DNA of 33,408 nucleotides. It comes from Chiloscyllium plagiosum. Its lineage: Eukaryota. The translations under genes and the position numbers were made by a program. The notes beneath the pieces were generated by a model, which saw nothing but the letters and a program-made list of their open reading frames with translations, was not told the origin of the DNA and ran no database searches. Positions 5,072-32,305 of the stretch are shown piece by piece. The stretch covers positions 1 through 33,408 of the forward strand of contig NW_025214709.1 in assembly GCF_004010195.1 (NCBI RefSeq). The letters are read 5' to 3'. Numbering within the stretch: the first letter of the stretch is position 1; each line of letters starts with the position of its first letter.

Positions 5072-6635
5072 CTGCCAGAAAGTTATGGCCTCAGGCTCCA
5101 CTCTGTAGCTTTAAGCACAAACTCTGGGACAACACTGAAGGAGTGCTGAAGTGTCAGAGAGGCAGGCTGCCCTATGATCTGATTAAAAAGTAGTGCATAC
5201 TTGAGGGGCTGCGTGGGAGGGGAGGCACTGAAGATGTGTTATGCTATCAGAAGGTTGGCACTGAGGGAGTGCCGTGCTGTCAGAGGGTCAGTGCTGAGGG
5301 ACTGCTGCATTATCGGAGGGTCAATGCTGAGGGAGTGCCGCACTGTTGGAGGGTCAATGCTGAGGGAGTGCCGCACTGTTGGAGGGTCAGTGCTGAGGGA
5401 GCGGCGCACTGTTGGAGGGTCAGTGATGAGGGAGTGTTGCATTGTCGGGGGGTCAGTGCTGAGGGAGTGCCACACTGTTGGAGGGTCAGCGCTGAGGGAG
5501 CGCCGCACTGTCAGAGGGACAGTGCTGAGGGAGCGCCGCACTGTCAGAGGGACAGTGCTGAGGGAGCGCCGCACTGTCGGAGGGTCAGTGCTGAGGGAGT
5601 GCCGCACTGTCGGAGGGTCAGCGCTGAGGGAGCGCCGCACTGTCGGAGGGTCAATGCTGAGGAAGCTGGCACTGTTGGAGAATCAATGCTGAGGAAGCGC
5701 TGGACTGTTGGAGGGTTAACTCAGAAGGAGCAGGCACTGTCAGAGGATCAGTGTTGAGAGAGCAGGCACTGTCGGAGGATCAGGGCTGAAGGAGCAGGCA
5801 CTGTTGGAGGATCAGTGCTGAGGAAGTGGGCACTATTGAAGGGTCAATGTTGAGGGAGCGGGCACTGTTGGAGTGTCAGTGCTGACGGAGTGGGCACTGT
5901 CAGAGGGTCAGTGCTGAGGGAGCACCGCACTGTCAGAGGGTCAACGCTGAGGAAGCGGGCACTGTTGGAGGGTCAGTGCTGAGGGAGTGCTGTACAATCG
6001 GAGTGTCAGTGCTGAGGGAGTGCCGCACTGTCGGAGGTTCAGTGCTGAGGGAGTGCTGTACCATCGGAGTATCAGTGCTGAGGGAGTGCCGCACTGTCGG
6101 AGGGTCAGTGCTGAGGGAGCAGGCACTGTCGGAGGGTCAGTGCTGAGGGAGTGCCGCACTGTCAGAGGGTCAGTGCTGAGGGAGCAGGCACTGTCAGAGG
6201 GTCAGCGCTGAGGGAGCAGGCACTGTCGGAGGGTCAGTGCTGAGGGAGCAGGCAATGTCAGAGGGTCAGTGCTGAGGGAGCAGGCACTGTCGGAGGGTCA
6301 ACGCTGAGGGAGTGCTGTACCATCAGTAGTGAGAGTGTGCTGTGCTGTTGGAGGGTTGGCATTGAGGCTGCATCATGCTGTCGGAGGGTCAGTGCTGAGG
6401 GAGCTGCACACTGCCAAACAATGTGTGCTGAGGGTGTGCTGTGTTGTTGGAGGGTCAGTGCTAAGAGAATATTGCTCTCTTGGAGAAGCAGTAAAGAGGG
6501 AATGCTGCACTGTCAGAAGTGCTTTCGTTTGGATAAGACATTAAACCAAGCCCTGTCCACCCTCTCAAATAGCCATGAAAGGTACTATTTTGAAGAGTGG
6601 GGCAGTTCTGCCTCTCAGATTGCAAAACCAAACTA
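5072..6635 (+). mobile_element. DeuSINE-like copy with its internal segment expanded into a minisatellite
   Basis: SINE 5' part (CAGAAAGTTATGG..CCACTC..TAAGCACAAA) lies before the array. The SINE continues after it (GGATAAGACATTAAACCAAG..CCCTCTCA..TACTATTTTGAAGAG..AGTTCT). Confidence 0.65.
5255..6517 (+). repeat. 32-33-bp minisatellite (GGGTCAGTGCTGAGGGAGTGCCGCACTGTCGGA), array 1
   Basis: Roughly 38 units, degenerate at both edges. Confidence 0.95.
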
Positions 6636-8611: not shown

Positions 8612-8753
8612 ATACCATGACAACCAGGATGTCACCAGTAACTTTCTGGGAGCGATGTGGCTCATCTCAATCACCTTTTTGTCCATCGGCTATGGTGACA
8701 TGGTGCCCAACACTTACTGTGGGAAAGGTGTCTGCTTGTTGACTGGGATCATG
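8612..8753 (+). CDS. KCNN2: Internal exon of an SK-type Ca2+-activated K+ channel (KCNN2-like): turret, pore helix, selectivity filter and start of S6
   Basis: cag|A TAC CAT GAC ... ATC ATG|gtaagt, 142 nt. Encodes (R)[49 protein letters not shown] family assignment is very strong. VPNTY matches KCNN2 (mammalian KCNN1/3 have VPHTY), but orthology is not proven. Absent from the ORF track. Confidence 0.95.
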
Positions 8754-13690: not shown

Positions 13691-14114
13691 GTTACTGCCG
13701 TATAACAGGAAAAGATCATTCAGGGCTTCTTCTGTTGATTACGACCTAGTTTTCATCATCTAGTGTGGTCTGGCAGGGATGTCTGAGACCAACTGGAACT
13801 AGCGAGAAGAGATAATGTTAATTTTGGGATAATTGGGTGAGAATTTGATTGGTAGAGTTTTGGGATCAGAGAGTTGAAATAAAACTCTGACTGCAAAAGA
13901 ATGTGCCTGGATTCCATCTAACTAACATATAACCACTGGTGCTTAATGCCTGTGACTCCAGTCCAGAAACTGTCCTGCTATCAGGTGACATTAGGGATCA
14001 ATTGTGATCAAATATCTCCCATTGACACTGATCCAGATCACTTGGGTTGAGATAGTGGACAGGTACTGAAGAGAGCAGAAATGTGTTGGAGTGAAATCGA
14101 TCTGGTAGGAGATA

Positions 14115-14259
14115 GCGCAGCAGGTCAGGCAGCATCCAAGGAACAGGAAATCGACGTTTCGGGCATAAGCCCTTCTTCAGGAATGCTGAAGACCTGCTGC
14201 GCTTTTCCAGCAACACATTTTCAGCTCTGATCTCCAGCATCTGCAGTCCTCACTTTCCC
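14115..14259 (-). mobile_element. 145-bp Penelope-type non-autonomous element with a 13-bp target-site duplication
   Basis: Direct repeat CTGGTAGGAGATA at 14102-14114 and 14260-14272. Internal inverted repeat 14115-14137 / 14181-14202. Confidence 0.8.
14149..14184 (-). ncRNA. Candidate minimal type I hammerhead ribozyme
   Basis: Minus strand: CTGAAGA-A-GGGC-TTAT-GCCC-GAAAC-GTC. This has the CUGANGA core, 4-bp stem II, GAAA, palindromic ACGT helix III and a GUC cleavage triplet. Proximal stem I is weak. Confidence 0.6.
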
Positions 14260-14852
14260 CTGGTAGGAGATATCCCTACTCACCATGAATGGGGAAGGGG
14301 AGAGAGGGGCTCAATTGGTTTGGAAGAAGGTTTCATTCATGCCCCAAAATACCTTTTTGAATTCAGCAACAAACATCGAACTTCCTGTCAAAAACAGAGG
14401 TCAGAAAAGCATCTCCTTCCCCACCAACCACACCCTCAAAATTCCAGGCTGAAACTATCTGAACCAGCTGTCTGAAAAGCATGTCAGCAGTGAACAGCTG
14501 TTCCCTACGGTTGGGTAACCACAGAAATCAGACACATTTGTTCAATTAATGTGGAGAAAGATTCCACTGATCGGATTTCTCATGAAATGATACACCAGAG
14601 AAGGAGGTCATTTGACGCAACATGTTGGTGCTAGCCCTTTGAAAGACCCATTTCCCTGATGTCTGCCCACACCATATAAATCTTTACCTAATGAATCTGT
14701 CTATGCTGCCCTTTCAGCCTGCACTTTGTAATCACAACAATTTTGAGAAAGTTAACAATGCAGATTGTTATTTGATACAGCTTCTTGACCCTTAGTGCTT
14801 GATTTACATTCAGGTGATTACTGCAACATCCGAACACCTAGTCCTTCTACAC

Positions 14853-15625
14853 AGTCAGTTCAGTGCTGAGGGAGCAGGCACTATCAGAGGGTCAGTGCTG
14901 AGGGAGCGGGTTCTGTCGGAGGGTCAGTGCTGAGGGATCGGGCACTGTCAGAGGGTCAGTGCTGAGGGAGCGGGCACTGTCGGAGGGTCAGTGCTGAGGG
15001 ATCGGGCACTGTCAGAGGGTCAGTGCTGAGGGAGCGAGTACTGTCAGAGGGTCAGTGCTGAGGGAGCGCCACATTGTCGGAGGGTCAGAGGGAGCGCTGC
15101 ATTGTCGGACAGTCAGTGCTGAGGGAGCAGGCGCTGTCAGATGGTCAGTGCTGAGGGACGCCGCATTGATGGAGGGTCAGAGGGAGAGCCGCGCTGTGGA
15201 GGGTCAGTGCTGAGGGAGCACCACACTGTCGAAAGGTCGGTGCTGAGGGAGCACTGCATTGTTGGAGGGTCAAAGGGAATGCCGCACTGTCGGAAGGTCA
15301 ATGCTGAGGGACCAGACACTGTTTGAGGGTCAGTGCTGAGGGAGAGGGCACTGTCGGAGGGTCAGTGCTGAGGGAGCGGGCACTGTCAGAGGGTCAGTGC
15401 TGAGGGAACACCGCACTGTCGAAGGGTCAGTGCAGAGGGAGTGTTGCATTGTTGGAAGGTCAGTGCTGAGGGAGCAGGCGCTGTCAGACAGTCAGTGCTG
15501 AGGGAGCACGGCACTATTGGAGGATAGTGCTGAGAGAACGGGCGCTGTCGCAGAGTCAGTGCTGAGGGAGTGCCCCACTGTTGGAGGGTCAGTGCTGAGG
15601 GAGTGCAGTGTCAGAGGCAGTGCTT
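14853..15625 (+). repeat. 32-33-bp GGGTCAGTGCTGAGGGAG minisatellite, array 2
   Basis: About 24 units, same family as 5255-6517. Confidence 0.95.
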
Positions 15626-18135: not shown

Positions 18136-18849
18136 CTACACCCAAATCAGTATTTGTCTAAGGCCACAGACAATGGTTATGAAAGATCAAGGGGCTGCCC
18201 TGGAACATTGTATTGTGTTAAAGGTACTATATTAATGCAAGCAAATGTTGGCAGTGAAGAACTTCGAGATGTTCTGAGCATGGGAAAGAAATTTTTTAAA
18301 TCTTTAACTTGAAAGACATCCTCAGTCAGAAAGCCAAGCAAGGCAGATGGGAAGTATTGAACTGCCTAGTTTCTGCAAGCAGTTTGCCCTCCATTTGCTG
18401 TGATTGAGGGCCGTGCAGAACTTTAAGAAGTCTCTATTGATGCATCTGCCACTCAACTAAATTAAATTCAAGGAAGGACTGCACAAGGGCTCCTCTGGGA
18501 GTTTAACACGATACATTGCCATTACAAATCTCTGGTAAGTCGCTGGGAAGTCAGGTTCAATTTGTTTTCTGGAGGGTCCTCCAAGGCTGTGTGAGGTTGG
18601 ATTAATACATTTGCGTGAAGAGATTTATTTCTCCAGAGGGTACGACTCATCTTAAAGTAAATAGGCTCAATCTGGTCTGTGCAGTCATAAAAACACTTGT
18701 TTTTAAAAACTGCCCGATGTGTCCTCCCTGAGTTCTAAATTTTAGTCACTTAAGAGTGGTTCGTTTGGGGTGGGGAATTTCCATCCGTACCAGTTGCTCC
18801 CAGTTATTCAGGTTTTGACAACACTATTCTCCTCGTGATTATTCCAGTA

Positions 18850-20140
18850 GGAGTCACTGGACAGTGAGCAGGACCAGGAACCCTGGCTGATTTCCCCTCG
18901 CTCTCTTCAATATAACGGTCAGTAGACAGTGACCAGGAGCAGGAACCCTGGCTGATTTCGCTCCCCACCTCTTCTCGAATATAGGGGTCAGTGGTCAGTG
19001 ACCAGGAGCAAGAGCCCTGGCTCTCTCTCTAATATAGGGGTCAGTGGGCAGTGACCAGGAGCAGGAACCCTGGTGGATTTCCCCCCCCTCTCACTAATAT
19101 AGGGGTCAGTGGACAGTGACCAGGAGCAAGAACCCTGGCTGATTTACCCCCTCTCTCTCTCGAATATAGGGGTCAGTGGACAGTGACCAGGAGCAAGAGC
19201 CCTGGCTGATATCCCCCCTCTCTCTAATATAGGGGTCAGTGGGCAGTGACCAGGAGCAGGTACCCTGGCTGATTTCTCCACTGTCTCTCTAATATAGGGG
19301 TCAGTGGGCAGTGACCAGGAGCAGGAACACTGGCTGATTTCTCCACTGTCTCTCTAATATAGGGGTCAGTGGGCAGTGACCAGGAGCAGGAACCCTGGCT
19401 GATTTACTCCCCACTCTTTCTCTCTAATATAGGGGTCAGTGGGCAGTGACCAGGAGCAGGAACCCTGGCTGATTCCCCCCCCCCTCTCTAATATAGGGGT
19501 CAGTGAGCAGTGACCAGGAGCAGGAACACTGGCTGATTTCCCCACTGTCTCTCTAATATAGGGGTCAGTGGGCAGTGACCAGGAGCAGGAACCCTGGCTG
19601 ATTTACTCCCCACTCTCTCTCTCTAATATGGGGTCAGTGGTCATTGACCAGGAGCAAGAGCCCTGGCTCTCTCTCTAATATAGGGGTCAGTGGGCAGTGA
19701 CCAGGAGCAGGAACCCTGGCTGATTTCCCCCCCACTCTCTCTCTCTAATATAGGGGTCAGTGGATAGTGACCAGGAGCAGGAACCCTGGCTAATTTCCCT
19801 CCCCCTCTTTCTCTCTAATATAGGGGTCAGTGGATAGTGACCAGGAGCAGGAACCCTGGCTGATTTCCCGCTCCCTCTCTCTCTAATATAGGGGTCAGTG
19901 GGCAGTGACCAGGACAGGAAACCTGGCTGAATTATTCCCCTCTCTCTCTAATATAGGGGTCAGTGGGCAGTGCCCAGGAGCAGGAACCCTGGCTGATTTC
20001 CCCTCTCTCTCTCTCTCTCTAATATAGGGGTCAGTGGGCAGTGACCAGGAGCAGGAACCCTGGCTGATTTACTCCCTCTCTAATGCAGCATTGATACAAA
20101 CACTGAGCAGGAGCAGGAACCCTGGCTGGTTTTTCCACTC
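18850..20140. repeat. About 65-bp minisatellite (TAATATAGGGGTCAGTGGGCAGTGACCAGGAGCAGGAACCCTGGCTGATTT plus a variable C/T tract)
   Basis: About 18 well-formed units plus degenerate edge units. Confidence 0.95.
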
Positions 20141-21185: not shown

Positions 21186-21322
21186 TCAGTTCTGAAGAAG
21201 TCATATTGAACTTGAAATGTCAGCTCTCTTTCTCTCACCACAAGTGCTGCCAGGCCTGCTGAGTTTTTAGAGCATTTCTATTTTCATTTCAGATGTCCAG
21301 CATCCGCAATGTTTTGTTTTAA
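21186..21322 (+). mobile_element. Decayed Penelope-type short repeat with a degenerate hammerhead motif
   Basis: AGTT-CTGAAGA-AGTCATATTGAACTT-GAAATGTC-AGCT, then TGCTGCCAGGCCTGCTGAGTTTT..AGCATTTC..CAGATGTCCAGCATCCGCA. Confidence 0.6.
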
Positions 21323-21547: not shown

Positions 21548-22406
21548 TTGAAATGATTGGAGCTGCATTACTCAACAATATGGGAAGTGGACCTCAGATA
21601 GATAGGATAGTGAAGAAGACATGAGGCCTTCAGATCAGGACACCCACTCAAATATAAGGAATCCAATTCGCAGAGCCATTAAGACAGCCAAGAACCAATA
21701 CCGATCCAAACTAGAGACCCAGACAGACACCCGGCGACTATGGCAAAGACTGAATGACATCACAGCTTCTAAAAAGAGACAGTGCAAGATAGCAGAAGAT
21801 GACACATCCCTCCCAGATCATGTCAACGTCTTCTGTGATCGCTTTGAGCAGAATTTCTGCGGAGAGGTAACACCTATTCTGACAATTCCTGACGAACCTA
21901 TCCCAACAGTCACTGCATCAGAGGTCAGATCAGTTTTCCTTTGTGTGAATCCAAGGAAAGCAATGGGACCAGACGGAGTACCAGGCCATGGACTCAGAGC
22001 ATGTGCAGACCAACTGGCAGAGATCTTCTCGGATATCTTCAACCTCTCCCTGCAGCAGGCCACTGTCCCTGCCTGTTTCAAGAGGGCAAACATCATCCCT
22101 GTGCCTAAGGAGGCTCATGCAGCATGTCTCAATGACTACCGCCCAGTGGCCCTAACTTCGGTGGTCAGGAAGTGCTTTGAAATGCTGGTCATGGCATTAA
22201 ATCAACTCCAGCCTCCCCACTACTCTAGACCCACTCCAATTTGCCTATCGGACCAATAGATCCACGTCAGATGTCATATCACTTGCCCTTCACTCCTCCC
22301 TAGACCATCTTGACACCAAGAACAGCTACGTAAGAATCCTGATCATTGACTTCAGTTCAGCCTCCAACACTATTATCCCCTCGAGACTGATTACTAAACT
22401 TAGTGA

Positions 22407-22685
22407 TTAGATTAGATTTTTTAGATTAGATTACATTACAGTGTGGAAACAGGCCCTTCGGCCCAACAAGTCCACACCGCCCCGCCGAAGCGCAACCCAC
22501 CCATACCCCTACATTTACCCCTTACCTAACACTACAGGCAATTTAACATGGTCAATTCACCTGACCTGCACAACTTTTGGATTGTGGGAGGAAACCGGAG
22601 CACCCGGAGGAAACCCACGCAGACATGGGGAGAATGTGCAAACTCCACACAGTCAGTCGCCTGAGGTGGGAATTGAACCCGGGTC
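22407..22685 (-). mobile_element. Young HE1-like V-SINE inserted in Rex1; head lost in the gap
   Basis: (TTAGA)n tail, ACAGTGTGGAAACAGGCCCTTCGGCCCAAC, GGGAGGAAACCGGAGCACCCGGAGGAAACCCAC, GGAATTGAACCCGGGTC. Confidence 0.9.
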
Positions 22686-22813
22686 NNNNNNNNNNNNNNN
22701 NNNNNNNNNNNNNNNNNNNNNNNNNNNNNNNNNNNNNNNNNNNNNNNNNNNNNNNNNNNNNNNNNNNNNNNNNNNNNNNNNNNNNNNNNNNNNNNNNNNN
22801 NNNNNNNNNNNNN
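22686..22813. other. Assembly gap (128 N)
   Basis: Run of N. Confidence 0.98.
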
Positions 22814-23438
22814 ACTAATGCCATTTACAAGTTCGCTGATGACACCACCATTGTCGGTTGAATCTCAGATAGCGGCGAAACAGACTACAGGCGGGAGATG
22901 GAAGACCTGGAAAAATGGTGCACAACCTAGCTCTCAATGCCGGCAAAACCAAAGAACTCATTGACTTTCGGCGGGATGTTACTCATGCCCCTCTACACAT
23001 TAACAGCACAGAGGAGGAACGAGTGGAGAGTGTCAAGCTCCTGGGAGTGGTCATCTACAACAAGCTTTCTTGGACTCTCCATGTGGACGCACTGGTTACA
23101 AAGACCCAACAACGTCTCTTCTTCCTCAGGCAGCTGAGGAAATTTGGCATGATGACGAATACCCTCACCAACTTTTATAGGTGCGCCATCGAGAGCATTC
23201 TGTCTGGATGTATCACTACCTGGTGTGGCAACTGTACCATTTAAGATCAGAGACGGTTACAGTGGTGAACTCAGTCCGGACAATCACAATGGCCAACCTC
23301 ACATCTATAGAATCCATCTACCAGGCCCATTGTCAAGGAAGGCTGCCAGTAATCTCAAAGAACCATCCCACCCTGGCAATGTTTTTCTAACCTCTACCAT
23401 CAGGGAGAAGGTACAGAAGCCTGAACACACGCACCAGC

Positions 23439-25486: not shown

Positions 25487-26569
25487 CAGTCATCGAGTCA
25501 TAGAGATGTACAGCACGGAAACAGACCCTTTGGACCAACCCGTCCATGCCAACCAAATATCCCAACTCAATCTAGTCCCACCTGACACACCTGGCCCATA
25601 TCCTTCCAAACCCTTCCTAGTCATACACCCATTCACATGCCTTTTAAATGTTGCAATTGTACCAGCCTCAACCATTTCCTCTGGCAGCTCGTTCCATACA
25701 CGTACCACCCTCTGTGTGAAAAAATTGAACCTTTGGTCTCTTTTATATCTTTCCCCTCTCACCCTAAACCTACGCCCTCTAGTTCTGGACTCCCCCTCCC
25801 CAGGGAAAAGACTTTGTTCCACACTCACTATCCATGCTCCTCATCATTTTATAAACTCTATAAAGTCACCCTTCAGCATCCGATGCTCCAGGGAAAACAG
25901 CCCCAGCCTGTTCAGCCTCTCCCTATAGCTCAAATCCTCCAACTCTGGCAACATCCATATCAATCTTTTCAAGTTTCACAACATCCTTCCGATAGGAAGG
26001 AGACCAGAATTGCATGCAATATTCCAAAAGTGGCCTAGCCAATGTCCTGTACAGCCGCAGCATGACCTCCCAACTCCTGTACTCAATTCTCTGACCAATA
26101 AAGGAAAGCATACCAAACACAGCCTTCACTATCCTATCTACCTGCGACTCCACTTTCAAGGAGCTATGAACCTGCACTCCAAGGTCTCTTTGTTCAGCAA
26201 CACTCCCTAGGATCTGACCATTAAGTGTATAAGTCCTGCTAAGATTTGCTTTCCCAAAATGCTGCACCTTGGGTTTATCTAAATTAAACTCCATCTGCCA
26301 CTCCTCAGTCCATTGGCCCATCTGATCAAGATCCCATTGTAAACTGAGGTAACCTTCTTTGCTATCCACCACTCCTCCAATTTTGGTGTCATCTGCAAAC
26401 TTACTAACTGTACCTCTTATGCTCACATCCAAATCATTTATGTAAATGACAAAAAGTAGTGGATCCAGCACCAATCCTTGTGGCACTCCACTGGTCACAG
26501 GCCTCCAGTCTGAAAAACATCCCTCCACCACCACCCTCTGTCTTCTACCTTTGAGCCAGTTCTGTATCC
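25487..26569 (-). mobile_element. Relatively young 5'-truncated CR1 (HER1-like), inserted into an L2-like fragment
   Basis: WIQNWLKGRRQRVVV..SGVPQGLVLDPLLFVIYINDLD..KFADDTKIGG..RPLLEYCMQFWSP; TCTATGAC-type tail. The flanks rejoin as CCACATAAGGAGAT|ATCAGGACA. Confidence 0.92.
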
Positions 26570-27013
26570 AGATATCAGGACAGAGAGCTATTAGAACATC
26601 TTCAAGGAGGAGGGAGAGACTGAGAGGAATAGGGAGGAATTTCCACATCCGAGGGACAGACAGCTGCATGCATGACCCTCAATGCAGGCTGTGAACCTTT
26701 ATCTCAGGCTCAGTCACAGTACTCAGGAAAGGAAGCGAAGAAGTTTAAGGAATTATTAAAGCATTTGACGTCACTGTCAAGCAGGGCAGATAAATCCTTT
26801 GTTTAATATTTCATGTATTAAAAAATGAGTTTGATGCAGAGCAAGGGATCATCTGTAATTCTCACAGAACTCAGAGGGTCTTTGTGAGAGAGACATCTGG
26901 CTCATAACCTCTATAATCCTGGAAGGAATTTCATAGACTGACCATCACTGAGAGTGCAGTGCCTTCAAATTCTGGTGAGGGATTACTTTTCACAGTTTTA
27001 CTCCCTGCCAAAA

Positions 27014-28110
27014 ACACTGACTCTCACTGGGGTACAGGGTCCCACACACACACTGACTCTCACTGGGGTACGGCATCCCACACACACACTGACTCTCACT
27101 GGGGTACAGGGTCCCACACACACACTGACTTTCACTGGGGTACGGCATCCCACACACACACTGACTCTCACTGGGGTACAGGGTCCCAAACACAAACTGA
27201 CTTTCACTGGGGTACGGCATCCCACATTCACACTGACTCTCACTGGTGTACGGGGTCCCATACACACACTGACTCTCACTGGGGTACGGTTCCCACATTC
27301 ACACTGACTCTCACTGGGGTACAGGGTCCCACACACACACTGACTCTCACTGGGGTACAGGGTCCCACACACAAACTGACTTTCACTGGGGTACGGCATT
27401 CCACACACACACTGACTCTCACTGGTGTACGGGGTCCCATACACACACTGACTCTCACTGGGGTACAGGGTCCCACACACACACTGACTTTCACTGGGGT
27501 ATGGGGTCCCACACACACACTGACTCTCACTGGGGTACAGGGTCCCACACACACACTGACTCTCACTGGGGTATGGGGTCCCACACACACACTGACTCTC
27601 ACTGGGGTACAGGGTCCCACACACACACTGACTCTCACTGGGGTATGGGTTCCCACACACACACTGACTCTCAATGGGGTACAGGGTCCCACTCACACAC
27701 TGACTCTCAATGGGGTACAGGTCCCACAAACACACTGACTCATGGGGTCTCACACACACTGAGTCTCACTGGGGTACAGGTCCCATACACACACGGACCC
27801 TCACTGTGGTTCCTACATACTGACTCTCACGAGGGTAAATATTCCACTCTCACTGACTCACTGGGATATGGCTCCCCCAGACTCTGAGTCTTACTGGGAT
27901 ATGGTTCCCTCATATACTGACTCTCACTCAGGTGAGGATCCCACACTCACTGATTCTCACTCGGATATGGCTCCCACACACTCTGACTCTCACTGGGATA
28001 CAAATCCCACACACACAATGACTCACTGGGTTATCGTTCCACACACACTGATAATCACTGGGGTACAGTTCCACACACATTTACTGTCACTGGGATACAG
28101 TCTCACACTC
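27014..28110. repeat. 36-bp minisatellite (CACTGACTCTCACTGGGGTACAGGGTCCCACACACA)
   Basis: About 20 homogeneous units, then about 10 progressively decayed units. Confidence 0.95.
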
Positions 28111-28545
28111 ACTATCCAGCACTTCACTCTGTTATTCTCCATGTGAAAGAAACACATTCATAGAATTATTCTTCCAGTCATGTGATCCTCATGATGCCTG
28201 AGTTCAATCCGTGAGTTGTGTTGAGATCTGAGTTAATGCAGACGGGTGTCAACAAGGGAATTATCTGAATGATTTAGAACCTGTTATTAAAAATCTCATA
28301 CAATCTGTCAGTGAATTATCAAAGATTAATACTGTCGTACTCACTGCTTGGCTGACAGTGGGCCCCTCAGGGACTGGCAGTGAGGCTACAGTGACGGATT
28401 GTTTGGACACATTCAGCAGTTTATAATCCTGTTCGGAGAACTTAACCTGTCTATATATTTTAAATTTATTTTTGTTCCTTCCCTTCTTTGGTTCTTCCCA
28501 TCAGTTACCCATCACTGGGTGAGACAGCAGGCAACAAGTTCAGAG

Positions 28546-29178: not shown

Positions 29179-30014
<836 letters not shown>

Positions 30015-30194: not shown

Positions 30195-32305
30195 AGTTTC
30201 AAGAACATTGTGGCGACAAGAGCACATCAAAGGCTGTGAATTCTGTGGTGAGTAACTCACCTTCTGACTTCCTAATTCCTGGGACTGGCAGCTTAATGTT
30301 CCAGGATACAAATCCTACAGGAAGAACAGAAAGGGAGGCAAAAGAGGAGGGGGAGTAGCGTTTTTGATAAGGGATAGCATTTCAGCTGTGCTGAGGGAGG
30401 ATATTCCCGAAAATAGATCCAGGAAAGTTAGTTGGGAAGAACTGAGAAATAAGGGATGATCACCTTATTGGGATTGTATTATAAACCCCTTAATAGTTAG
30501 TGGGAAATTGAGAAACAAACTGGTAAGGAGATCTCAGTTATCTGTAAGAAAAATAGGGTGGTTATGGTAGGGGATTTTAAGTTCCCAAGCACAGACTGAG
30601 ACTGCCATAGTATTAAGGGTTTAGATGGAGAGGAATTTGTTAAGTATGTACAAGACAATTTTACTGATTCAGTATGTGGATGTACCTACTAGAGAAGGTG
30701 CAAAACTTGACCTACTCTTGGGAAATAAGGCAGGGCAGGTGACTGAGGTGTCAGTGGGGGAGGACTTTGGGGCCAGCGACCATAATTCTATTCGTTTTAA
30801 TATCGTGATGGAAAAGGATAGACCAGATCTAAAAGTTGAAGTTCTAAATTGGAGAAAGGCCAATTTTAATGGTATTAGGCAAGAACTTTCAAAAGCTGAT
30901 TAGAGGCAGATGTTCACAGGTAAAGGGACGGGGGAGATACTAAACCAGTATTTTGCATCAGTATTTACTGTGGAAAAGGACATGGAAGATGTAGAATATA
31001 GGGAATTAGATAGTGACATCTTGAAAAATGTCCATATTACAGAGGAGGAAGTCTAGATGTCCTGAAATGCACAAAAGTGGATAAATCCCCAGGATCCGGG
31101 ATCTTGATCAGATGGGTCAATGGGCTGAGGAGTGGCAGATGGAGTTTAATTTAGATAAATGCGAGGTGCTGCACTTTGGGAAAGCAAATCTGAGCAGGAT
31201 TTACAAACTTAATGGTAAGGTCCTAGGGAGTGTTGCTGAACAAAGAAACCTTAGAGTGCAGGTTCATAGCTCCTTGAAAGTGGAGTTGCAGGTAGATAGG
31301 ATAGTGAAGAAGGCGTTTGGTATGCTTTCCTTTATTGGTCAGAGAATTGAGTACAGGAGTTGGGAGATCATGTTGCGGCTGTACAGGACATTGGTTAGGC
31401 CACTTTTGGAATATTGCATGCAATTCTGGTCTCCTTCCTATTGCAAGGATGTTGTGAAACTTGAAAAGATTCAGAAAAGATTTATATGGATGTTCCCAGG
31501 GTTGGAGGGGTTCAAGTATAGGGAGAGGTTGAATAGGTTGGGGCTGTTTCCCTGGAGCATCGGAGGCTGAGGGCGGTGACCTTATAGAGGTTTATAAAAT
31601 CATGAGGAGCATGGATAGGGTAAATAGACAAGGTTTTTTTCCTCGGTTGGGGGAGTCCAGAATTAGAGGGCAAAGGTTTAGGGTGAGAGGGCAAAGATAT
31701 AAAGGAAACCTAAGGGGCAACTTTTTCATGCAGAGGTGGTGCGTGTGTGGAATGGGCTGTCAGAGGCTAGTACAATTGCAACATTTATAAGGCATGTGGA
31801 TGAGTATACGAATAGGAAGGATTTGGAGGAATATGGGCCGGGTGCTGGCAAGTGAGACTAGATTGGGTTGGGATATCTGGTTGGCATGGACGAGTTGGAC
31901 CGAAGGGTCTGTTTCTGTGCTGTATGACTCTATGACTATGACTACCAGTAACAAGGCATAAATCAGGAGGGTGATGGAATACTCCCTGCTTGCTTGGATG
32001 GATGCAGCTTCAACAACACTCAAGATGCTTGGCACTGTCCAGGACATAACAGCCCAGCTGGTTGGCTCCACATCCACAAGTATCCACTACCACCACCTCG
32101 AAGAACAATGGCAGCAGATAAATGGGAACACCACCCCCTGCAAGTTCCCCACTGAGCCACTCACCATCCTGACTTGGAAATACTTTGCTGTTCCTTCATT
32201 GTTGATGGTTCAAACTCCTAGAACTACCTCTCTCCCCGTGTACCTATATCCCAAGGACTGCAGCGATTCAAGAAATGCTGACCCAGCCAGTGATGCCCTG
32301 AAAAA
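30195..32305 (+). mobile_element. 3' fragment of the 9391-12365 LINE family (30195-30280 and 31943-32305), split by a CR1
   Basis: GAGTAACTCACCTTCTGACT | ACAAGGCATAAATCAGGAGGGTGATGGAATACTC matches the contiguous sequence at 11800-11880. Confidence 0.75.
30281..31942 (+). mobile_element. CR1 (HER1-like) ORF2 with endonuclease, large internal deletions and an intact 3' end
   Basis: DWQLNVPGY..GGGVA, QYVDVPTREGAKLDLLLGN..GASDHNSIRF, VDKSPG joined to DLDQMGQWAEEWQMEFN..; tail CTATGACTCTATGACTATGAC. Confidence 0.92.

What the first reader, a model, noticed from the sequence alone, without database searches (positions are those of the whole stretch)
14102..14272. Tiny mobile element carrying a minimal hammerhead ribozyme, with a clean 13-bp target-site duplication
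Seen: 145 bp sit between exact CTGGTAGGAGATA direct repeats. The minus strand reads CUGAAGA-A-GGGC(UUAU)GCCC-GAAAC-GUC, with predicted cleavage between 14153 and 14152. This lies at the apex of a ~22-bp imperfect hairpin (14115-14137 with 14181-14202). Established: minimal hammerheads with palindromic helix III occur in Penelope-like element repeats and can act as dimers, and an extra nucleotide between A9 and G10.1 is tolerated in natural hammerheads. Inference: a recently mobile, non-coding, retrozyme/SINE-like unit mobilised in trans by a Penelope RT. It is antisense to KCNN.
Basis: partly seen in the sequence, partly recalled or inferred. Interest (0 to 1): 0.7.

Follow-up and report, generated by a model that had tools for sequence, protein, structure and literature searches.

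The report
Two-armed Penelope retrotransposon end stub
This 145-base insert is a real, recent insertion, but it is two back-to-back scraps of the end repeat of a very common Penelope-type jumping gene, likely written from both cut DNA strands and likely a dead end rather than a self-spreading ribozyme element.

Summary
The 13-mer occurs only twice in the window, the minimal hammerhead motif is as described, and two related organisms carry the empty site (3 of 3 runs).

The SINE/retrozyme reading does not hold. The insert is two head-to-head pieces of the pseudo-LTR (pLTR) of an RT + GIY-YIG Penelope-like element, likely Neptune clade. The genome has 98,057 exact hits to the motif, about one per window. 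This copy's central junction is unique, so the unit did not re-amplify. The 'hairpin' is only the overlap of the two arms and is predicted to block ribozyme helix I.

Of 83 TSD-bounded two-armed copies, 73 pair a short end (~m94) with a long end (~m130). None pairs like with like, and 10 have one off-site end, as this copy does. This fits two-strand priming at two fixed RT start sites (inferred).

The layout is in print, and this scan has reported it before on this and other genomes. Interest is low; the one-short/one-long rule is the only testable lead.

The parts
14102..14114 (+). Left copy of the target-site duplication (13 bp; possibly 14 bp with 14101)
   Evidence: single copy in empty-site contigs X13, X15, X17
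14115..14184 (-). Arm 1: pLTR positions m1-m71 (m1 = 14184; m counts along the 204-nt unit L028:1575-1778). It ends about 23 nt short of the usual short end (~m94)
   Evidence: 70 of 71 positions aligned to the pLTR of L091, 1 substitution and 1 deleted base; ends of sister copies
14149..14184 (-). Minimal type I hammerhead motif: helix I 14184-14181 with 14152-14149, core CUGAAGA 14180-14174, extra A 14173, stem II 14172-14161, GAAA 14160-14157, palindrome ACGU 14157-14154, predicted cut 14153/14152
   Evidence: sequence; matches the min-HHR features in PMC4209133
14185..14190 (-). 6-nt filler TTCAGC, equal to the last 6 nt before the short end; likely an aborted re-start of reverse transcription
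   Evidence: 5 of 6 genome-wide hits of the longer short-end/m1 junction are head-to-tail repeats of the unit; the mechanism is inferred
14191..14259 (+). Arm 2: pLTR positions m60-~m130 in the opposite orientation, ending at the usual long end (with the ~36-nt tail); no hammerhead
   Evidence: 67 of 67 identical to the L091 pLTR; BLAST m60-130 at 14191-14261
14260..14272 (+). Right copy of the target-site duplication; its first 2 bases also match the element end
8612..8753 (+). Host exon upstream of the intron (K+ channel pore; KCNN by recall)
   Evidence: PF07885 E 1.1e-9; AG/GT edges
29889..30000 (+). Next recognised host exon (end approximate); no Pfam hit
   Evidence: translation, AG/GT edges, 0 Pfam families

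Best explanation
The insert is two head-to-head fragments of the pseudo-LTR of an abundant RT + GIY-YIG Penelope-like element, likely Neptune clade, likely made in one abortive insertion and predicted to be unable to move again. Proposed steps: (1) inferred: the element's endonuclease cuts both target strands about 13-14 nt apart, which gives the TSD. (2) Inferred: each free 3' end primes reverse transcription on element RNA, one at the long start site (~m130, bottom strand) and one normally at the short site (~m94; here off-site at m71, with one shared base). (3) Inferred: the top-strand cDNA ran through the hammerhead to m1, the likely RNA 5' end at an initiator-like TCATTCC, re-started at the short site for 6 nt, and was joined to the bottom-strand cDNA at m60. 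Shown: the TSD, the empty site, the identity of both arms, the unique junction, the two end positions and their one-of-each pairing. The hammerhead is a passenger of the pLTR, and the host intron is transcribed from the other strand.
For: The unit runs on into a Penelope-type ORF start and is preceded by a constant 3' UTR in many copies (20,399 exact UTR/m1 junctions). L092 holds, in broken frames, RVT_1 (E 6e-8), GIY-YIG (E 0.0017, below the Pfam cut-off), a CX4CxxC linker and then pLTR m1-97. 98,057 motif hits, control 1; 0.92 expected per window. Unique junction. 3' ends of 30 unselected incidental arms: 12 at m90-100 and 11 at m124-137. Two-armed TSD-bounded inserts: 73 of 83 short+long, 0 short+short, 0 long+long. 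In the set picked only by motif order on contig C1: 16 of 19, with 0 like-with-like. 30 of 51 same-subfamily copies start within a few bases of m1 with no UTR upstream (counted by eye; 16 loci of other subfamilies left out because the UTR reference does not match them). In vitro, a Poseidon PLE cuts and extends both strands and starts RT at two internal sites that bound the tail (PMC11167929). Empty site in 3 of 3 runs of other organisms.
Against: No intact ORF of this family was found: of 11 long loci fetched, all that I could see are broken, truncated or interrupted by N, and part of that output was cut. The GIY-YIG hit is below the gathering score. This copy breaks the family rule at one end (m71, not ~m94). 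The RNA 5' end at m1 is inferred from copy boundaries only; RNA run X22 showed no pile-up of starts or ends (single-cell polyA, about 2% read). In vitro, PAc showed no difference in start site between strands, which neither shows nor excludes one-of-each pairing. The arms disagree at 9 of 108 subfamily-diagnostic sites (7 of 41 inserts), so one RNA molecule cannot explain every insert.
Confidence: 0.85

Rival explanations
1. A non-autonomous retrozyme/SINE-like unit with its own transcript, self-cleaved as a dimer and moved in trans by a PLE RT.
For: Non-coding, has a min-HHR and a TSD. Partial tandems of the unit exist (L028, L032, L201-L205). Animal retrozymes derive from pLTRs (bioRxiv 10.64898/2026.07.22.740005), and pLTRs can move other sequence in trans (PMC3846280).
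Against: Unique junction; junctions differ between copies. Single HHR and no array. 0 of 30 incidental arms start in m26-45, around the cut at m32/33. Both arms are >=97% identical to the pLTR of an ORF-bearing copy.
Confidence: 0.06
2. One cDNA folded back or self-primed (or an antisense template was used), and the endonuclease then resolved the hairpin with a ~36-nt offset, giving one tailed and one untailed end.
For: Proposed in print: self-priming (PMC3846280) and EN-mediated resolution of the tail (PMC8557442). It explains one-of-each ends directly. The arms share subfamily sites at 99 of 108, against 51% when shuffled.
Against: 7 of 41 inserts have discordant arms, two of them at two linked sites; about 3 discordant sites would be expected from private mutation (my estimate from 113 private changes in 4,205 sites). 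Arms often stop at different places with a gap or filler, as here (m1 and m60). In vitro the tail ends are RT start sites.
Confidence: 0.07
3. A longer insertion that was later deleted or recombined down to a solo remnant, or an insertion kept because it regulates the host gene.
For: Solo pLTRs from deletion are described. The copy seems present in three more samples of the same organism label.
Against: Intact TSD, near-zero divergence, lineage-specific, about 5.3 kb from the nearest recognised exon, HHR antisense. The second contig of the locus (L002) has a CpG change that breaks the ACGU palindrome (14155). No RNA reads on the flanks were seen (shallow).
Confidence: 0.02

Closest known systems
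Insertion unit of endonuclease-positive Penelope-like elements: pLTR, adjacent inverted 5'-truncated copy, one-sided 30-40 bp tail, TSD (Adineta Pen2a, PMC3846280; Craig 2021, PMC8557442)
   Same: Head-to-head inverted pLTR, tail on one end only, TSD, Inr-like motif in the pLTR, RT followed by GIY-YIG.
   Different: No ORF is left here; TSDs in this family are mostly 13-16 bp against 8-10 bp in the Adineta examples. The papers say the tail is 'optionally' or 'often' one-sided; here 0 of 83 two-armed inserts have like ends.
Neptune clade PLEs (CX2-5CxxC linker upstream of GIY-YIG)
   Same: CX4CxxC linker, C-x2-C inside the GIY-YIG core, RT before EN, HHR in the pLTR.
   Different: No microsatellite targeting at this site or in the TSDs listed. 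No tree was built, so Nematis is not formally excluded.
Minimal hammerheads of metazoan PLEs (Cervera and de la Pena 2014, PMC4209133)
   Same: Extra nucleotide between 9 and 10.1, G10.1-C11.1 pair, palindromic 15.2-16.2, short helix I, mostly single dispersed copies, some close pairs on opposite strands.
   Different: Stem II is only 4 bp. About 98,000 exact hits here, against about 4,000 (coelacanth) and 9,000 (Xenopus) called remarkable there (different search methods).
Poseidon PAc of Anolis in vitro (Frangieh 2024, PMC11167929)
   Same: Two internal RT start sites that bound the tail; both strands cut and extended; HHR not needed for insertion.
   Different: Different clade; that paper does not report paired ends within one product (main text read).
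Non-LTR retrozymes (bioRxiv 10.64898/2026.07.22.740005)
   Same: pLTR-derived, non-coding, type I HHR.
   Different: Defined by at least two tandem units with complete HHRs; this insert has one HHR and an inverted arm.

Membership tests
EN+ Penelope-like element (fragment of) | Sequence is the pLTR of an element with RT followed by GIY-YIG | tested here: met
   L092: RVT_1 E 6e-8, GIY-YIG E 0.0017 (below cut-off), then 3' UTR and pLTR m1-97; window arms match the L091 pLTR
EN+ Penelope-like element (fragment of) | Inverted 5'-truncated pLTR copy and 30-40 bp tail at one end | tested here: met
   Ends at ~m94 and ~m130; window arm 2 carries the tail
EN+ Penelope-like element (fragment of) | True TSD with an empty orthologous site | tested here: met
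EN+ Penelope-like element (fragment of) | Intact active master copy | tested here: inconclusive
   None seen among 11 long loci; many N gaps and the output was cut
Neptune clade | CX2-5CxxC linker upstream of a C-terminal GIY-YIG | tested here: met
   L091 and L092; definition from PMC8557442 passages
Neptune clade | RT groups with Neptune in a tree | not tested
   No reference sequences were fetched
Minimal PLE hammerhead | Core, extra nucleotide 9/10.1, stem II, palindromic helix III | tested here: met
   Between subfamilies loop II (TTAT, TCAT, TTTT, CTGT, TAAT) and N7 vary while the GGGC/GCCC stem stays; other families in the loci have other paired stems and an AGCU palindrome (the search fixed the core, so core conservation was not tested independently)
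Minimal PLE hammerhead | Self-cleavage as monomer or dimer | not testable with these tools
   Folding predicts helix I unformed (p ~0.001) and unstable in isolation (+1.4 kcal/mol)
Non-LTR retrozyme | At least two tandem units with complete HHRs | tested here: not met
   One HHR of this family in the window
Non-LTR retrozyme | Circular RNA or unit boundaries at the cleavage site | tested here: inconclusive
   0 of 30 incidental arms start in m26-45; polyA RNA run gave no start/end pile-up; no RNase R data
SINE-like unit | The unit itself is amplified with constant internal structure | tested here: not met
   Junction unique to this site; the commonest similar junction has 45 hits

The most novel reading that the evidence does not exclude
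Penelope-like elements insert by obligate asymmetric twin priming: the two cut target strands always use different fixed RT start sites about 36 nt apart, RT can re-start at the short site after reaching the RNA 5' end, and this produces the inverted pLTR, the one-sided tail and the partial tandems. The ~98,000 hammerhead-bearing stubs in this genome are then a fossil record of that step, and the paired-end rule can be tested at once in the existing PAc in vitro system.
Probability: 0.55. Interest if true: 0.5.

Novelty: new member of a known kind. Interest (0 to 1): 0.2.

Why it matters
The single insert is ordinary: about one such motif is expected per window of this genome, and it is probably neutral. 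It is a clean lineage marker (filled in organism A, empty in B and C). The family-level numbers matter more. How PLEs form inverted pLTRs and tails is called undefined in PMC8557442, and the one-short/one-long rule (0 of 83 like-with-like) gives a sharp prediction for a published in vitro assay. About 10^5 minimal hammerhead motifs is also well above the vertebrate counts quoted in PMC4209133.

Tried and rejected
Rfam scans found no hammerhead model hit. This is not evidence against, since minimal forms lack helix III.

The standard junction was tested as a possible amplifying unit and rejected: only 45 hits. A ~95-nt circular monomer was considered and rejected: only 6 hits of its junction.

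A 204-nt monomer was considered from L028 and rejected: the join to m1 falls at variable places in the ORF start, and loci L031-L060 were selected for that join.

No RNA holder was listed. RNA run X22 gave 575 reads on the repeat only, 98% running on unlike the flanks; X23 gave none. Neither says anything about this locus.

Filled alleles in X4, X6 and X7 cover only 24-27 bases of the insert, below the tool's 31-base bridging rule, and the lists were cut, so fixation in organism A is not shown.

One RNA versus two RNAs could not be separated: 92% arm concordance against 88% when shuffled within haplotype. One search was a first pass with duplicate pairs and is superseded.

A few of the 83 rows (for example L037 210/146 and L145, 11-bp TSDs) may be chance pairings; they sit in the 'other' class and were kept. 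Groups A and D (37 rows) were selected with queries that favour a long end on one arm; without them it is 39 of 46 short+long and 0 like-with-like.

No protein homologue search, tree or fold was run. Paper searches for a shark-specific report and for a twin-priming or structural account of PLE insertion found none in this library, which lacks most subscription papers.

Full report
1. Observation. The 13-mer CTGGTAGGAGATA lies at 14102 and 14260 and nowhere else in the window, with 145 bp between. The minus strand carries the minimal hammerhead as described, with the cut predicted between 14153 and 14152. Rfam does not score it. Stem II is predicted to form; helix I (4 bp with a U-U mismatch) is not, p about 0.001, because the long hairpin takes its 5' strand. 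The insert lies in an intron between + strand exons at 8612-8753 and 29889-~30000 of a K+ channel gene (the name KCNN is recalled), so the hammerhead strand is antisense.

2. It is a true, young insertion. Contigs from organism B (X13, X15; two studies) and organism C (X17) join 14100 directly to 14259 with at least 132 bases on each side, a skip of 158 = 145 + 13 (3 of 3 such runs laid). Their flanks differ by about 2% (20 in ~1,040 bases, X13) and 3% (20 in ~675, X17). Three other samples labelled organism A show filled junctions, but with only 24-27 insert bases each. A second contig of the own assembly (L002) holds the same site with a CpG change that breaks the ACGU palindrome.

3. What the insert is made of. 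A search of the own genome gave 1,879 candidates, 40 scored. With a 204-nt unit from L028 as ruler (m1-m204), the window insert reads, on the hammerhead strand: TSD, inverted m130-m60, six bases TTCAGC, m1-m71, TSD. Downstream of m204 the unit continues into a Penelope-type ORF start, and upstream of m1 many copies have a constant 3' UTR (20,399 exact junctions). L092 holds, in broken frames, RVT_1 (E 6e-8), a CX4CxxC linker, GIY-YIG (E 0.0017, below cut-off), the UTR and m1-97. By the linker criterion in PMC8557442 (passages) this is Neptune-like and not Penelope/Poseidon. The window arms match the pLTR of ORF-bearing L091 at 67 of 67 bases, and at 70 aligned bases with one substitution and one gap. 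The unit is therefore the pLTR of an autonomous-type element. No intact ORF was seen among 11 long loci.

4. Abundance and uniqueness. The motif pattern has 98,057 exact hits (reverse control 1), or 0.92 per 33.4 kb. It spans several subfamilies, duplicate contigs inflate it slightly, and decayed copies are missed. The window's own junction has 2 hits, both this site, and the commonest similar junction has 45. Each two-armed insert thus looks built afresh, which argues against a SINE-like unit. Between subfamilies loop II and N7 vary while stem II stays paired, and another family uses a different stem and an AGCU palindrome (85 motifs in 67 loci). That fits selection on the motif in master elements, not in this copy.

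5. End rules. Among 30 unselected incidental arms, 12 end at m90-100 and 11 at m124-137. The ~36-nt gap equals the PLE tail, whose two ends are RT start sites in vitro (PMC11167929). Of 83 two-armed inserts with a TSD, 73 have one short and one long end, none has two alike, and 10 have one off-site end. In the set picked only by motif order it is 16 of 19 with none alike, where independent choice would give about half. The window copy is of the off-site kind (m71). 30 of 51 same-subfamily copies begin at about m1 with no UTR (by eye, 16 loci of other subfamilies left out). m1 is the A of an initiator-like TCATTCC and the first base of helix I; D. virilis Penelope has an Inr-type internal promoter (PMC2377424, passages). 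The 6-nt filler equals the short end, and 5 of 6 genome-wide hits of that junction are head-to-tail repeats, which suggests re-starting at the short site. Arms share subfamily sites at 99 of 108 (51% shuffled; 88% shuffled within haplotype), with 7 of 41 inserts discordant: mostly one source, sometimes two templates.

6. Mechanism. The most likely route (0.85 for the identity as a dead pLTR stub; the priming steps are inferred) is a staggered two-strand cut, priming from both 3' ends at the two start sites, run-off at the RNA 5' end, a brief re-start, then head-to-head joining and repair. The copy lacks the short start site on arm 1 and everything downstream of the long site on arm 2, so it is predicted not to be a template. 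PAc needed about 55 nt beyond its distal start site and did not need its hammerhead. Rivals are a trans-mobilised retrozyme (0.06), fold-back with endonuclease resolution (0.07), and deletion remnant or host function (0.02).

7. What is known. Inverted pLTR, one-sided tail and TSD are described in PMC3846280 (passages; lead from earlier finding e1-9172571) and PMC8557442 (passages). Dispersed single min-HHRs from truncated PLEs, and close pairs on opposite strands, are in PMC4209133 (parts 1-2 of 4, results and discussion), which also reports no cleavage for a monomer and low cleavage for dimers. The retrozyme preprint (parts 1-3 of 5; supplements closed, and they may list the one cartilaginous fish family) defines retrozymes by tandem units. 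PMC11167929: parts 1-2 of 4 read (main text; supplement not read). PMC6155905: passages only. Searches found no shark-specific or twin-priming account in this library. This scan has noted the same stubs and the same end rule many times; my searches came before those look-ups, and those notes are not independent support.

8. Verdict. Observation confirmed; interpretation partly supported. New member of a known kind; interest 0.2. Most novel reading: obligate asymmetric twin priming, probability 0.55, interest 0.5 if true.

Noticed in passing
window 21189-21320 (+): A decayed pLTR of another Penelope-like family: degenerate hammerhead core at 21192 and 78% identity to m52-114 at 21245-21308; no clear TSD.
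   Followed up: partly
L202 and L203, upstream of the central match: Two or three head-to-tail repeats of about m51-m95, each ending at the short site: reiterative re-starting of reverse transcription.
   Followed up: no
L091:~1030 and L061-L090, just past m204: A GTGAGT donor-like site lies about 10 nt past m204 in the ORF start; D. virilis Penelope has an intron near its start. Not tested for splicing.
   Followed up: no
L091, L092, L100 ORF N-terminal part: A long Thr/Pro/Ser-rich low-complexity insert between the N-terminal domain and RT, variable between copies.
   Followed up: no
L124, L071: Two-armed inserts whose arms differ at two linked subfamily sites (m43, m47): best cases for two different RNA templates.
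   Followed up: partly
G000:C5:81293499-81293928: Six exact hits of the pattern at 40-120 bp spacing: a possible short tandem array derived from the ORF start.
   Followed up: no
loci L102-L199: A second hammerhead family with stem II GGAG/CTCC and an AGCU palindrome (3 motifs) and one with AGCA/TGCT.
   Followed up: no
window 21606-23241 (+), 25926-26678 (-), 31085-31567 (+): Fragments that look like LINE reverse transcriptase by eye; not scanned.
   Followed up: no
window 5244-6517, 14860-15624, 18848-20140, 27014-28115: Minisatellite arrays of about 33, 65 and 72 bp period in the same gene; two arrays share one unit.
   Followed up: no
L002 = G000:C35206; L018 and L020: The assembly holds some loci twice (allelic or duplicate contigs), which slightly inflates copy counts.
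   Followed up: yes
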